DNA of 64,000 bases from a virus (IMGVR_UViG_3300009151_000043:1-64000); one strand, 5' to 3'; numbered from the stretch's first letter, positions 23,281 to 34,051 are shown. Program-made: numbers and translations. The notes: a model not told the origin generated them from the sequence alone.

Positions 23281-25705
23281 TTATTCTTCGTCGTTACCGA
23301 TGGCTATACTGAGTTTACGCATGTTCTTTTGTACATCTGCGACAGGGTCGCCTTTACTAGTCACCATGACCAATTTACCCTGTGCTTGTCTACGCATACC
23401 CTTCAAGTCGTCTTCATGACTTACTGCGAATGGAATGAACTCTGCCAATACTTCCATCACATGACTGTCGCTGACTTCTTCTCCCTGGTCAAATGCCTTG
23501 TATAGTGCATCTTTGAACACCTCCTCAATTTCCGCACCTGTGAAGTTCTCTGCTCCGGTCACAAGTGTTTTGAGACTGAAGTCCTTCGGATCTCTTTTGT
23601 ACTTCTTGATAACCACGGTGAAGATTTCTTTTCTTTCTTCTGCTGTGGGCAAATCTACCCAGAACAGCTGGTCAAACCTACCCTTACGGATAAGTGCGGC
23701 TGGGAGGAGAGTGTGATTGTTTGTGGTAGCTACAATAAACGCAGGGTTTTTGCGGTCGTTGAGCCAGCTGAGAAATGTTCCGAAAATGCGGCTACTGACA
23801 CCGCTATCTCCTGACCCGCTAACCGCACTGTTACTGAGTGCTTTTTCAATTTCCAATAATGTTACGAATATACCGCTTCCGTATATCCTCTGCATGTCTC
23901 CATACAGTTCAGATCATATCTTAGCTTCTCTTCTAATTTTTGCAACGCACCTAGCGCAACGACCTGCCGAATTATGCTTGCTATCAGCCTTGTTACATAA
24001 CACACAGACAGTATGATTTTTAGCCCAGCCGTCTCTGCCGGGTTTAAACCTACTGGAAAGTAGCTGCGCCCTGTGTTCGGTGGAGTGACAAGACCTACAT
24101 AAAGTTATAAGATTATCCAGTCGATTATTCGGTGTTTTGCTGTTGCGCCCATTACCATCAATATGATGTATAATATTTCCTGAGTTAAAACAGCGCTGAC
24201 ACTTATTATCGTCACGGACAAGCACAGCTTGCCTATTGCCTGAAAAATAACGTTGTTCACGTTTTTCTTTGGCGCTAGGCTTCTGCTTCGTTATGTAGTG
24301 CTTATTCTTTTGAGCTTTTACTTTAGCTATATTAGCTACATCACTGTGATGCCGCTTGAGATAGCAGTAATTACATAGCCCTTTGGCTATATGTCTGCGC
24401 TCTGTGGTGTTGCATTCGATGCACTTATCTGCCTTTTTACTCCAAGGTTTCATAGTTATAATCTACCTAGAGTTGAAAAGTTTTTCAAGAGAAACTTTCA
24501 GTTTTTCGAAGTTGCTAACTTCTACGTCTTACGACTGATCGTTGAACCTTCCTCCGCTGGAGGCTCGGCTGCTGATTGCCCAATCCTGTATGTTTTCAAA
24601 CATTCACGCTTACAATTACTTGTTACGTTGTAGTCATGCAGGCTCTAAGGGTATCCCAGCAATTAACTGAATTTTAGATCAACCAAATTTAATCGATCAA
24701 AATTACGCATTTACCAATACTCTCCACAGTCTTGATCATCTCGCGCATATTCTTTTCAGAATTACCCACCAGCGAGTCAAAAATACTGCCAATATCCAGG
24801 GCGAATAAAGGGCAGTCAAACTCTTTAGCGATAGCTTTACAAATCAAAGACTTACCTGTACCTGGAACACTCGCCAGCAACATACCTTTAGGCATCGGTA
24901 AATTATAATCTCGGGCATCTTTACTGTAGGCCTTTTTGCGGGCAGTAAGCCAGTTTTTAAGCCCCTGCATGCCGCCAACATTCTCAAAAGAGATGTTAGG
25001 CTCCATGTAAGTCAGCAACCCGTTTTTCCTGAGCTGGGCAATTTTTTCCTGAAAAACTGCCTCCACAAAGGCTGTGTTAAATTTACGTACGGCTACCAGA
25101 GCTACAGAGAAGGCGTTCTCGACCTCCACGTTAGTCATGCCCTTGGCTGCCTCAACTGCACCATCAAGGATATACTCATCGATCTGCATCAACGGCTTGT
25201 TATTAGCTTCCCTATCTTTGTTTACTGAGCTCTGTACAAAGAGCAACCTTTCTTTGATCGCTGCGGAATCTGGCAGATCATAATCAACAAGCTGAATTTC
25301 TTTCTGAAGCTCGGCAGGCACTGCAAACTTCTGCCCTACCATGATAATCATGTTCGCGCGGCTCTTTAGCATATTCCAAGCATTACGCAGCATGCGGATA
25401 TTCAACACCTTGTCGAAGTGCAAATGGAAGTCTTTAAGAATAAAGATATTTTGCTCCTGCTTGTAGCTTTGAATATAACGAAGCAACTCCGTAGTTACCT
25501 TGGTGTCGTCAGGATGATTTACATCTATTTCAGCACTTCTGCAAATAAGCCCGTTCTGCGCATCCCATTCATGGATAGCTACAGCTGGGTTATTTTTACG
25601 GATTTCCAGTAGCTCTTTAGCTAGCCGTCCTTCCTCGTGGGTGAGGACGAAAAGACCTGAGTAACCTGCTTTGTGATAATTTTCGATTTTAGTAATGAAG
25701 TTCAT
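23281..25705 (-). CDS. Ycf46-like AAA+ ATPase, spliced: exon 1 25705-24692 and exon 2 23853-23281 (528 aa)
   Basis: Exon 1 has THEEGR, ILKDFH, VGGMQGLKNWL, Walker A VPGTGKS and ends VILID. Exon 2 starts EIEKAL and has VATTN, RKGRFD, FTGAEIE. Joining restores Walker B VILIDEIEK. Confidence 0.9.
23854..24691 (-). mobile_element. Group I self-splicing intron (838 nt) with HNH ORF
   Basis: 5' exon ends in U. P1 GAUCGAU/GUUGAUC gives a U-G pair at the splice site. P/Q elements AAUUGCUGGGA and AAUCAGCAGCC. R GUUCAACGAUCA and S AAGAUAUGAUC form P7 GAUCA/UGAUC. Terminal G at 23854. Splicing restores the reading frame. Confidence 0.92.
23914..24453 (-). CDS. Intron-encoded HNH homing endonuclease
   Basis: RDDNKCQRC...HHIDGN...NN...NLITLCRSCHSTEH, flanked by two CxxC...H...G.CxxC modules. 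Confidence 0.88.
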   Translation of the reverse strand: MKPWSKKADKCIECNTTERRHIAKGLCNYCYLKRHHSDVANIAKVKAQKNKHYITKQKPSAKEKREQRYFSGNRQAVLVRDDNKCQRCFNSGNIIHHIDGNGRNSKTPNNRLDNLITLCRSCHSTEHRAQLLSSRFKPGRDGWAKNHTVCVLCNKADSKHNSAGRCARCVAKIRREAKI

Positions 25706-26375
25706 TTGATATGTTGGCTATGAAGTTGTTTTTCTTGATATGCTTTAACTCTTCGGTTTCTTTTATGTTGAAGAAGCCTAATATGTCTGCGGCTATTGCT
25801 TGCTGCATGGTTGTTTCGTTACGACTTGCTCTACTTCTGTAATATTGCACCTGCATAGGATGCATATTTTTTTCTATCCATTCCAATAATGAAAATATTG
25901 GATGCTCTTTTTTCTCCTGAGTAGGTGTTGACTCCTCAGGTTTTTCTTTAGGCTTCCTGCCTCTTTTCTTCGGCTCTTGCGCCACGATCTGCGGTGTGGG
26001 AGCGCTGAGCTTGTTTTTATTTTTAGCTCCTTTTGGGCGACCTCTGCGTCTGGGTGCAGCGTCAGCGGGATGTTCAACCTTTATGGGTTTGGCTTTGTTC
26101 TTTGCTCCCTTAGGTCTTCCTCTACGTTTAACTGGCTCCGCAGCTATGAAAACTACGTTATCCTCTTTTGGCTTATTTTTAGCTCCCTTAGGTCGGCCTC
26201 TTCTTGGTTTATCTAGGTCTTGAATAACGGGACCTGCCACCAAACTTCTTGGTTTGTTCTTTGCCCCTTTGGGGCGGCCTCTTTTCTTTACAATATCCGG
26301 AGATATATTACTCGTAAGACTCTTCGTCAGGGTCTCTTTCCTCTCGCAATCCTTTTTTTCTGATTTTTCGCTCAT
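25689..26375 (-). CDS. AT-hook repeat DNA-binding protein
   Basis: Four copies of RGRPKGAKNK plus KKRGRKPK. Confidence 0.85.
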   Translation of the reverse strand: MSEKSEKKDCERKETLTKSLTSNISPDIVKKRGRPKGAKNKPRSLVAGPVIQDLDKPRRGRPKGAKNKPKEDNVVFIAAEPVKRRGRPKGAKNKAKPIKVEHPADAAPRRRGRPKGAKNKNKLSAPTPQIVAQEPKKRGRKPKEKPEESTPTQEKKEHPIFSLLEWIEKNMHPMQVQYYRSRASRNETTMQQAIAADILGFFNIKETEELKHIKKNNFIANISNELHY

Positions 26376-29535: not shown

Positions 29536-30104
29536 TCTTTTAAATATTCTACAGTTATTTTAATTTTCTCGTTAAAGATCTCCTGCAGGGCCTCGTTCTT
29601 TTCATCGTCATTACCTTCTTTCTCCCGCATCAAAGCCTGAGGAAATAGTGTTGGAGGTTTATGCATACCATAATCATAGAATATCTGGCCAGCGTATGTT
29701 CGTACCTCTGGAGAAAAATGCAGAGGTTCGCTTCTGATTATGTACGCTTCTGTTAAACCACAAATCAGCTCCTCAGCTTCTAGAGGGTTGAGTTCTTCAA
29801 GGCTATCTGGCTGATGGTTTAACAAGTAGTTTAACGTCTCAAACACAACAATATTATTCTCATACATGTCTGTAGTAAGAATTGTTATTGCTGCTTGCAG
29901 CTTATCGGACTGTAGATCAGATAGCTCACAATCAAAATCTTCCTGCAACTGCGCTTTAAGTACGGTAGGATCCCACTCATAACACTCGTTACCGTATTTT
30001 TTAGTGACTAGCCACAATAGCGCTGTGGCCGGAGCTTTATCGTCTGTAAGTATTTGTTTAGCTGCTTTCATACATAGATACAAAGAACCTCCCTTGGTGC
30101 GCAT
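29523..30104 (-). CDS. Hypothetical protein (possible head-associated)
   Basis: Acidic 193-aa ORF near terminase; true start may be the internal MKAAK. Confidence 0.7.
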   Translation of the reverse strand: MRTKGGSLYLCMKAAKQILTDDKAPATALLWLVTKKYGNECYEWDPTVLKAQLQEDFDCELSDLQSDKLQAAITILTTDMYENNIVVFETLNYLLNHQPDSLEELNPLEAEELICGLTEAYIIRSEPLHFSPEVRTYAGQIFYDYGMHKPPTLFPQALMREKEGNDDEKNEALQEIFNEKIKITVEYLKECTH

Positions 30105-30160
30105 CGTGGAGAGGCGTGGGAGGTGTTGTTTGATTGGTTTGAGTTTGGTTTGAGTTTGGT

Positions 30161-33612: not shown

Positions 33613-33615
33613 GGG

Positions 33616-34051
33616 GGTGGACCCGAGGGGAGTTGAACCCCTGTCTCTAATACTTTTACAATCAATCACTTACAGCTTATCCGGTTGTTATATATTTCCT
33701 TCTACGGTAAACGGAAAACCTAGAGAAGAATCAAGTAAGCTTTAACTCTGCCTACTACAGCGAGTGGTCTATATCCCACCATTTTTTACAGGAGCTTGCA
33801 GTGTTTTGCAACTGCCCAGTTACCTGAGTCTGGGGTCCGGTACCTGCGAGCAAAGCTCGCTGCGGTTAGGCAGCGAGTGCTTCAGCGTCTTCAAACTCAA
33901 AAGAGTTCAAGATCGCGTCTGCTTCTGCAACGCTAGGCGCATACATGTTAGTGTTTGCGTTTAGGGTTTGTCCAGATTTTTAACGAGGCCAACCAGACTT
34001 CCTCGGCTGAGACTAATTACAACTATACTAGATCGAAACCAGTACGGGCCC
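33616..34051 (-). ncRNA. ssrA: tmRNA
   Basis: 5' GGGCCCGTACTGGTTTCGA. 3' GACAGGGGTTCAACTCCCCTCGGGTCCACC. Acceptor stem GGGCCCG/CGGGTCC with G3-U. pk1 CCGAGG...GGTTGGCCTCGTTAAAAA. Tag frame 33958-33866 ending ALAA-stop. Confidence 0.95.

What the first reader, a model, noticed from the sequence alone, without database searches (positions are those of the whole stretch)
23854..24691. Group I intron inserted between Asp and Glu of the Walker B motif of an AAA+ ATPase
Seen: exact boundaries can be derived (…ATC GAT | intron | GAA ATT GAA AAA…). P1 has the U-G pair, a P10-like AAUUU/AAAUU pairing and terminal G are present, and P7 is the variant GAUCA/UGAUC rather than GACUA/UAGUC (compensatory change). 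Known: phage group I introns mostly interrupt nucleotide-metabolism, polymerase, terminase or lysin genes. A Ycf46-type host gene is unusual to my knowledge, and automated annotation would call two broken ATPases.
Basis: partly seen in the sequence, partly recalled or inferred. Interest (0 to 1): 0.7.

Follow-up and report, generated by a model that had tools for sequence, protein, structure and literature searches.

The report
Self-splicing intron splitting a phage ATPase
An 838-base mobile group I intron carrying its own HNH endonuclease gene sits exactly between the Asp and Glu of the Walker B motif of an AAA+ ATPase gene in an uncultured freshwater jumbo phage; it is a well-supported but ordinary kind of phage intron in a host gene not reported before as far as I could find.

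Summary
On the minus strand, window 23854-24691 is an 838-nt insertion between ...ATC GAT and GAA ATT... of an AAA+ ATPase gene. A 99%-identical phage (L002) and a DNA contig from another freshwater sample lack exactly these 838 nt. Thirteen related phage contigs encode the ATPase uninterrupted, reading ILID|EIEK.

The insert has the full group I core: P1 with a U.G pair, P10, P3-P9, P7.1/P7.2 and a terminal G. A 179-aa HNH gene lies in the P8 loop. The 5' core is 72-80% identical to known phage introns that pass Rfam's threshold. The window's own Rfam score is only 26 bits against a cut-off of 50, probably because of the 551-nt P8 loop.

Two further copies sit at the same site in diverged phages (L106, L269). 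Their ribozyme parts are 90-97% identical, against 70-78% for the HNH gene and the exons. They show 7 compensatory and 13 one-sided pair-preserving changes, and 1 break.

The GAUCA/UGAUC form of P7 is a true covariation but a common one. Splicing itself is untested, because no RNA data exist.

Verdict: a real IA-type mobile intron, a new member of a known kind. Relatives carry a different LAGLIDADG-bearing insertion at Walker A.

The parts
24692..25705 (-). Exon 1 of the AAA+ ATPase (338 aa). It holds the N-terminal domain, Walker A (GTGKS) and Walker B up to the Asp (...CVILID).
   Evidence: ORF list. Pfam AAA profile positions 1-64. PHROG 8638 positions 24-371. Alignment A1.
23854..24691 (-). 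Group I intron, 838 nt. It starts UAAAUUUGG (the UAA is an in-frame stop) and ends ...CAUUAUUG (terminal G).
   Evidence: Exact 838-nt presence/absence against L002 and against a contig in DNA run X2. RF00028 alignment over the whole model. Same element at the same site in L106 and L269.
24486..24691 (-). 5' ribozyme part (intron positions 1-206). Elements: P1 loop and P10 strand (3-7); internal guide (8-15); P3 5' strand (21-26); P4-P6 domain (31-146); P7 5' strand (151-156); P7.1 (157-166); P7.2 (170-184); P3 3' strand (190-195); P8 5' strand (197-205).
   Evidence: blastn to 272 phage records. Relatives pass Rfam's cut-off. The minimum-energy fold reproduces P4-P6, P7.1 and P7.2. Family covariation. 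Three-copy comparison.
24677..24684 (-). Internal guide sequence GGUUGAUC. It pairs with exon 1 GAUCGAU and with intron U1, placing U(-1).G9 at the 5' splice site.
   Evidence: Sequence. In L106, G8 to A keeps the pair with U1. In L269, U11 to C turns G(-3).U11 into G-C. Both changes fit this register and not the register used in the Rfam alignment.
23914..24453 (-). HNH homing endonuclease gene (179 aa plus stop) in the P8 loop. Its last codons run through the P8 3' strand and J8/7, and its UGA stop lies inside the P7 3' strand.
   Evidence: Pfam HNH 25.1 bits against a cut-off of 21.4. PHROG HNH families. Intact in L106 and L269 at 77% and 75% aa identity. dN 0.17 against dS 1.9.
23854..23933 (-). 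3' ribozyme part (intron positions 759-838). Elements: P8 3' strand (760-768); J8/7 UAAGAUA; P7 3' strand UGAUC(U)G (776-782); P9 with GAGA loop (785-802); P9.1 (804-826); 3' tail ending in G838.
   Evidence: RF00028 alignment. Minimum-energy fold z = -4.7. blastn to Staphylococcus, Lactobacillus and Vibrio phage introns. Three-copy comparison.
23281..23853 (-). Exon 2 of the ATPase (190 aa plus stop). It starts with the Walker B Glu (EIEKALSNS...) and holds the rest of the AAA domain and the lid.
   Evidence: Pfam AAA profile positions 65-130 and AAA_lid_3. Alignment A1.

Best explanation
This is a mobile, self-splicing group I intron of the phage IA type: it has P7.1 and P7.2 and lacks P2. 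An HNH homing endonuclease gene sits in its P8 loop.

Splicing (inferred).
- The ATPase gene is transcribed through the intron, and the UAA at the intron's first codon stops ribosomes at the exon 1 end.
- The RNA folds into the group I core.
- Exogenous guanosine bound at the G-C/A-U site of P7 attacks after U(-1), which is held in the U.G pair of P1.
- P10 then aligns exon 2, the terminal G838 enters the guanosine site, and the exons are joined to give ...AUC GAU GAA AUU...
- This restores the Walker B motif ILIDE and a 528-aa ATPase.

Spread (inferred). In mixed infections the HNH enzyme nicks or cuts intron-less alleles near the Walker B coding sequence. Repair from the intron-bearing copy then copies the intron in (homing).

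What is shown and what is not. Shown: the exact insertion polymorphism, the core structure with covariation, homology to known introns, and purifying selection on both the ribozyme and the endonuclease. Not shown: catalysis, the ligated mRNA, and endonuclease cleavage.
For: 1. Exact 838-nt presence/absence. It is seen against L002, whose ATPase is 99% aa-identical and whose flanks are identical for 262 nt upstream and 348 nt downstream. It is seen again in a contig from an independent DNA run.

2. The exons abut perfectly in protein profiles and in 13 uninterrupted viral-contig loci. Ninety of the 120 listed homologues have a contiguous Walker B.

3. RF00028 aligns over its full length at E = 2.5e-4, with P1, P3-P9 and the J8/7 sequence AAGAUAU in place.

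4. The 5' core is 72-80% identical to introns in Staphylococcus, Streptococcus and Serratia phage genes for lysin, recombinase, tape measure and RNA polymerase. Those introns score 42-86 bits on RF00028.

5. Family alignment A3, of 28 ORF-less relatives: 94.5% of cells form standard pairs, against 69.9% when shuffled and 32-39% when slid. Thirty-four pairs have changes on both sides. The window forms standard pairs at 48 of these 49 positions.

6. Three copies of this intron sit at the same site (window, L106, L269). They show 7 compensatory and 13 one-sided pair-preserving changes, and 1 break. In L269, 21 of the 28 core differences lie in helices.

7. The ribozyme parts are 90-97% identical, against 70-74% for the ORF and 71-78% for the exons. 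HNH dN/dS is about 0.09.

8. All three intron-bearing alleles read AUCGAU|GAAAUU, as P1 and P10 need. Only 2 of the 13 intron-less alleles do.
Against: The Rfam model stays below its gathering score: 26.2 and 21.5 bits against 50. No RNA run holds this sequence, so there is no spliced read. No clear co-conversion tract separates the intron-bearing and intron-less near-identical alleles. P2 is absent. The 9-bp P8 has to close a 551-nt loop. Endonuclease activity is inferred from motifs only.
Confidence: 0.92

Rival explanations
1. It is a decayed intron. The element was once a group I intron but no longer splices, so the phage makes a truncated 338-aa ATPase, perhaps with a separate C-terminal piece, or the gene is dead.
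For: The Rfam score is below the cut-off. There is no RNA evidence. Exon 2 does have an in-frame ATG just upstream, inside the intron (ORF 23281-23895).
Against: Every core helix is intact. The ribozyme parts are far better conserved than the ORF or the exons across three diverged phages, and compensatory changes keep the helices. Both exons keep open frames and strong protein conservation, with dN about 0.08. The codons at the junction stay compatible with P1 and P10.
Confidence: 0.05
2. It is a free-standing HNH gene cassette inserted into the ATPase gene, with no ribozyme function. The resemblance to introns would come only from shared flanking DNA.
For: The HNH protein's nearest relatives in cultured phages are free-standing, terminase-associated HNH genes.
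Against: About 290 nt of non-coding flanks reproduce the whole group I core and are homologous to introns that pass Rfam's cut-off. A bare cassette would not need a U.G pair at its 5' end, a terminal G, or guide pairings to both exons. It would also destroy an otherwise strongly conserved gene.
Confidence: 0.02
3. It is an assembly artefact or chimera that joins an unrelated intron into the ATPase gene.
For: The window comes from a metagenome assembly.
Against: The same junctions occur in independent contigs: L106, L260 and L265, and L269. Logan contigs of runs X1 and X3 also cover them.
Confidence: 0.01

Closest known systems
Phage IA-type group I introns of Staphylococcus Twort-like/K-like and Sextaecvirus phages (lysin and recombinase genes), Streptococcus phage Str-PAP-1 (tape measure gene) and Serratia jumbo phage 2050HW (RpoBC gene)
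   Same: The P3-P7 sequence is 72-80% identical. All share this layout: internal guide directly followed by UAAAA and P3 with no P2; the extended P5 arm with ACUACAACGUAA...UAAGCGUGAA; P7.1 and P7.2; J8/7 AAGAUAU; and a 7-bp P9 with a GNRA loop.
   Different: The host gene and insertion site differ. Here P7 is GAUCA/UGAUC, whereas those four have GACUA/UAGUC. Here the ORF lies in the P8 loop, while the Staphylococcus PT1-4 intron has its HNH gene downstream of the core.
Intron-encoded HNH endonucleases of phage IA2 introns, for example I-PfoP3I in the cyanophage Pf-WMP3 DNA polymerase gene (PMC3428280) and the PhiPA3 RNA polymerase intron HNH (as described in PMC11878797)
   Same: An HNH enzyme is encoded inside a phage group I intron that interrupts a conserved essential gene. 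Homing, or interference with intron-less relatives, is the expected role.
   Different: This HNH matches Pfam PF01844 and has CxxC pairs on both sides. Its nearest solved relatives are the IscB HNH domain and a terminase-associated phage HNH (5h0m), both at weak E-values. Its cleavage site and chemistry are unknown.
Group I introns found in bulk in jumbo and crAss-like phage genomes (2513 in 136 Jug phage genomes, PMC12880540; Bastillevirinae, PMC11878797)
   Same: A large phage has an essential gene fragmented by a group I intron with a homing endonuclease. Gene callers report fragments. ORF-bearing introns are often only partly detected by covariance models.
   Different: Those papers name terminase, ribonucleotide reductase, DNA polymerase and similar genes as targets. 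I found no mention of a Ycf46-like AAA+ ATPase.

Membership tests
Group I intron (Rfam RF00028) | Score at or above the family's gathering cut-off (50 bits) | tested here: not met
   26.2 bits (E = 2.5e-4) in a local scan and 21.5 bits in the genome scan; no hit at the gathering threshold. Relatives without an ORF in the core score 58-86 bits. The shortfall goes with the 551-nt insertion in P8.
Group I intron | Conserved core helices P3-P9, including the P3/P7 pseudoknot, supported by covariation | tested here: met
   The window forms standard pairs at 48 of the 49 pairs of the family structure. In the family, 94.5% of cells pair, against 69.9% when shuffled. Three copies of this intron show 7 compensatory changes.
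Group I intron | P1 formed by the 5' exon end and an internal guide, with a U.G wobble at the splice site; P10 with the 3' exon | tested here: met
   AUCGAU pairs with GUUGAU, with U(-1).G9. AAUUU pairs with AAAUU. Changes at intron positions 8 and 11 in L106 and L269 keep this register. Exon codons are constrained in intron-bearing alleles.
Group I intron | Terminal G, and a guanosine-binding G-C pair followed by A-U in P7 | tested here: met
   G838 ends the intron. G152-C780 and A153-U779 are invariant in all 28 relatives.
Group I intron | Precise absence from otherwise homologous alleles | tested here: met
   L002 and 12 other loci lack it, and a contig in run X2 skips exactly 838 nt.
Group I intron | Guanosine-dependent self-splicing that gives ligated exons | not testable with these tools
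   No RNA run holds the sequence. This needs an in vitro assay.
Subgroup IA (IA2-like phage introns) | P7.1 and P7.2 hairpins between the P7 5' strand and the P3 3' strand | tested here: met
   GUC-GUAA-GAC (positions 157-166) and GAAGUU-AGC-AACUUC (170-184) are reproduced by the minimum-energy fold. P7.2 has two compensatory changes in L269. P2 is absent in this intron and its close relatives.
HNH homing endonuclease (Pfam PF01844) | Match above the curated cut-off, with the HH...N...N...H motif and two CxxC pairs | tested here: met
   25.1 bits against a cut-off of 21.4. The motifs CQRC...HHID...NNRLDN...CRSCH are in the translation. dN/dS is about 0.09 between copies. Cleavage was not tested.
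Classic-clade AAA+ ATPase (host gene) | Walker A GxxGxGK[ST] and Walker B hhhhDE aligned with solved AAA+ proteins | tested here: met
   GTGKS and VILIDE align with GSGKT/GCGKT and FIDE/FFDE of Cdc48 domains D1 and D2. Pfam AAA and AAA_lid_3 also match. The 'Ycf46' label rests on JGI names only and was not tested.

The most novel reading that the evidence does not exclude
The ribozyme parts of this intron are 90-97% identical in three phage lineages, while their ATPase exons and the intron's own HNH gene have diverged to saturation at silent sites. This could mean the ribozyme is being exchanged repeatedly among co-infecting freshwater jumbo phages. In that reading the intron and its HNH act as an interference weapon that cuts the Walker B coding DNA of intron-less competitors, as reported for PhiPA3 against PhiKZ, and are not just a passive parasite. 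A different LAGLIDADG-bearing insertion at Walker A of the same gene family would then mark this ATPase as a hotspot of such conflicts.
Probability: 0.2. Interest if true: 0.5.

Novelty: new member of a known kind. Interest (0 to 1): 0.3.

Why it matters
It shows that a 338-aa and a 190-aa 'AAA ATPase fragment' in this phage and its relatives are one 528-aa gene. That corrects the annotation of the 11 of 120 listed homologues that are cut off at the Walker B Asp.

It adds a host gene and insertion site to the catalogue of phage group I introns. It is also a clean natural example of the rule that homing elements settle in codons for catalytic residues. Here both ATPase motifs are occupied in different relatives: Walker B by an intron with an HNH gene, and Walker A by an insertion with a LAGLIDADG gene.

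It is also a worked case of how a long ORF in P8 pushes a true intron below Rfam's cut-off.

Tried and rejected
- No RNA holder was listed for the stretch, so splicing could not be checked with reads.
- Co-conversion tract: the flanks are identical to L002 for 262 nt upstream and 348 nt downstream. Most 250-nt bins of the 7-kb comparison also have 0-2 differences, so this is not a signal. A naive Poisson figure was discarded.
- Adding the window's core to alignment A3 with MAFFT put the P3 3' strand and P9 one register off. By the family's layout (P7.2, then GAA, then P3', then P8) the P3 3' strand is intron 190-195, not 203-208.
- The P1 register in the Rfam alignment, with U(-1) paired to A13, was rejected. 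Changes at positions 8 and 11 in L106 and L269 fit the U.G register instead.
- An intein was excluded: there is a stop codon at the first intron codon, and the ORF has its own start.
- Three literature searches found no report of an intron in a Ycf46-like phage ATPase. This is absence of a hit in a partial library, not proof of novelty.

Full report
**Where it is.** The window is the first 64 kb of a 95,418-base IMG/VR virus record that CheckV rates about 49% complete. It comes from a freshwater metagenome. Its large terminase is at most 30% identical to that of any cultured phage; the nearest are 180-187-kb Salmonella and Vibrio phages. The host is therefore an uncultured large phage.

**The gene and the insertion.**
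- The gene is on the minus strand.
- Exon 1 (24692-25705, 338 aa) ends ...CVILID.
- The next codon, TAA (24691-24689), is the first three bases of the intron.
- Exon 2 begins at 23853 with EIEKALSNS and runs to the stop at 23281-23283.
- Between the exons lie 838 nt (23854-24691) holding a 179-aa ORF (23914-24453).

**The boundaries are exact.**
- Pfam's AAA profile is matched at positions 1-64 by exon 1 and 65-130 by exon 2. PHROG 8638 is matched at 24-371 and 372-541.
- Six full-length homologues (525-530 aa, 68-79% identical to exon 1) read CVILID|EIEKALSNS with no gap.
- Of 15 viral contigs encoding the ATPase, 13 have exon 2 directly after exon 1.
- One of these, L002, is 99% identical in protein. 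Its DNA is identical to the window for 262 nt before and 348 nt after the junction. The alignment breaks at the junction, and the window's surplus is exactly 838 nt.
- Independently, a contig in DNA run X2 (another sample and study) joins 23853 to 24692, 'skips 838', with no other differences. Run X1 covers the intron throughout. A 2025 run (X3) covers the 3' junction.
- ILIDE aligns with the Walker B motifs FIDE and FFDE of Cdc48 domains D1 and D2. The break is therefore between the Walker B Asp and Glu.

**It is a group I intron: Rfam and homology.**
- Rfam's RF00028 finds nothing at its gathering score.
- In a local scan it aligns over the whole model at 26.2 bits, E = 2.5e-4. P1, P3, P4-P6, both P7 strands, P8, J8/7 AAGAUAU and P9 are in place, and a long insertion sits in the P8 loop.
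- The intron's 5' core (window about 24523-24680) matches 272 phage records by blastn at 72-80% identity.
- Four of these were fetched. All lie in split genes: Staphylococcus phage lysin and recombinase, Streptococcus phage tape measure, and Serratia jumbo phage RpoBC.
- They score 85.9, 42.4, 82.1 and 58 bits on RF00028. The one with an ORF inside the core also falls below 50.
- The 3' part (P7 3' strand to P9.1) matches introns of Staphylococcus, Lactobacillus and Vibrio phages.

**The structure** (intron numbering; window coordinate = 24692 minus position).

| Element | Positions | Note |
|---|---|---|
| P1 | exon -7 to -1 with 9-15, plus U1.G8 | U(-1).G9 at the splice site |
| P10 | 3-7 with exon 2 +2 to +6 | AAUUU / AAAUU |
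| P2 | none | |
| P3 | 21-26 / 190-195 | |
| P4 | 31-36 / 117-122 | |
| P5 | 41-43 / 111-113 | |
| P5a, P5b arm | 50-107 | ends in a GUAA loop |
| P6, P6a | 123-146 | |
| P7 | 151-156 / 776-782 | U781 bulged |
| P7.1 | 157-166 | GUAA loop |
| P7.2 | 170-184 | |
| P8 | 197-205 / 760-768 | |
| P9 | 785-802 | GAGA loop |
| P9.1 | 804-826 | |
| Terminal G | 838 | |

- Minimum-energy folds of the separate domains reproduce P4-P6, P7.1, P7.2, P9 and P9.1. The fold of P9 plus P9.1 has z = -4.7.
- P7.1 and P7.2 place the intron in subgroup IA, the usual phage type.

**Covariation in the family.**
- I aligned 28 ORF-less relatives from IMG/VR (A3).
- RNAalifold recovered P3, P4, P5, the P5 arm, P6a and P9. 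Thirty-two of its 47 pairs had changes on both sides.
- I then removed one spurious helix and added P7 as a pseudoknot. With that structure, 94.5% of cells form standard pairs, against 69.9% in shuffles and 32-39% when partners are slid. The covariation score is 0.642 against 0.187.
- The window forms standard pairs at 48 of these 49 positions. This holds once its P3 3' strand and P9 are read in the register that the family layout dictates.

**P7.**
- In A3 the two middle pairs are U-A/C-G in 15 rows and C-G/U-A in 13, with no mixed case. The G-C and A-U pairs nearest J6/7 are invariant.
- In wider scans, contigs with 5' GATCA have TGATC downstream 74 times and TAGTC once. Contigs with 5' GACTA have TAGTC 98 times and TGATC once.

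**Three copies of this very intron.**
- L106 (82% identical over 838 nt; L260 and L265 are the same type) and L269 (79%) carry the element at the same site.
- Their ATPases are only 75% and 71% identical to the window's in exon 1 protein.
- On my helix model the two other copies give 137 unchanged cells, 13 one-sided changes that keep the pair, and 7 compensatory double changes. The compensatory changes lie in P5, P5a (two), P5b, P7.2 (two) and P9. One pair is broken.
- In L269, 21 of the 28 core differences lie in helices.
- The ribozyme parts are 96-97% (L106) and 90-91% (L269) identical. The middle of the ORF is 70-71% identical and, for L106, the exons are 71-78% identical in DNA.
- Position 8 (G to A in L106) and position 11 (U to C in L269) keep P1 in the U.G register. 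They would break the register used in the Rfam alignment.
- All three intron-bearing alleles read AUCGAU|GAAAUU. Only 2 of the 13 intron-less alleles have both halves, and nine use GAC for the Asp. This fits selection, or co-conversion, for P1 and P10.

**The ORF.**
- It matches Pfam HNH above the cut-off and 12 PHROG HNH families.
- It has the motifs CQRC...HHID...NNRLDN...CRSCH, plus extra CxxC pairs on both sides.
- The nearest solved relatives are an IscB HNH domain and a phage terminase-associated HNH, both weak matches.
- It is intact in all three copies, with dN 0.17 and dS 1.9 between the window and L106. It is therefore under purifying selection.
- It starts in the P8 loop and ends inside the core: its last codons form the P8 3' strand and J8/7, and its UGA stop is part of the P7 3' strand.

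**What is not shown.**
- No RNA run holds the sequence, so splicing and the ligated mRNA are inferred.
- The endonuclease's target and chemistry are inferred.
- There is no clear co-conversion tract against L002.
- It is unresolved why the ribozyme parts are so much better conserved than silent sites of the ORF and exons. Strong constraint or more recent exchange could each explain it.

**Comparison with the literature.**
- Phage group I introns sit in conserved protein genes, and homing-endonuclease sites often encode critical residues (PMC3984707).
- Most Bastillevirinae introns are IA2/IA3-like. In 32 of 45 the ribozyme is interrupted by a nuclease-encoding loop, and covariance models sometimes miss one side (PMC11878797).
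- 2513 group I introns were reported in 136 gut jumbo phage genomes, splitting terminase, nrdD and polymerase genes (PMC12880540).
- I found no report of one in a Ycf46-like AAA+ ATPase.
- The kind is therefore ordinary, and the host gene and site appear to be new.

**Verdict.** This is a new member of a known kind, with interest about 0.3.

Noticed in passing
L015:4363-5456 (also L016); compare L013: The same ATPase family carries a different insertion of about 1094 nt at Walker A...CCT GGT ACC GGT | AATATTTTG...CAATACTG | AAA AGC, that is P-G-T-G | K-S. It holds a 283-aa ORF with two LAGLIDADG-like motifs. Its 3' end looks like J8/7-P7'-P9 (AAGATATAGAAC followed by a hairpin). RF00028 finds nothing there at E up to 5. 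L013 is a 97% identical allele without the insertion. Six homologues end at ...SVPGTG plus a few residues.
   Followed up: partly
window 23854-24691 compared with L106:12027-12865 and L269:1644-2483: The non-coding parts of the intron, including the 32-nt leader of the HNH ORF and its first ~30 coding bases, are 90-97% identical between copies. The ORF and the host exons are saturated at silent sites. Constraint alone may not explain this; recent exchange of the ribozyme parts is possible.
   Followed up: partly
window 33615-34051 (-): A phage-encoded tmRNA: RF00023, 118 bits against a cut-off of 47, full length, with a long insertion in the region of the tag reading frame.
   Followed up: no
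window 30087-30123 (-): A match to the abiF RNA motif: RF03085, 47.2 bits against a cut-off of 37, full length, 37 nt.
   Followed up: no
window 25689-26375 (-): The gene just upstream of the ATPase encodes a 228-aa protein with four near-identical RRGRPKGAKNK (AT-hook-like) repeats.
   Followed up: no
L031 (IMGVR_UViG_3300037249_000367), L208, L170, L191, L198, L202: Several viral contigs carry two or three copies of the intron core motif AAGGTTCAACGA(TC/CT)A within a few kb. These are phage regions densely packed with related group I introns.
   Followed up: no
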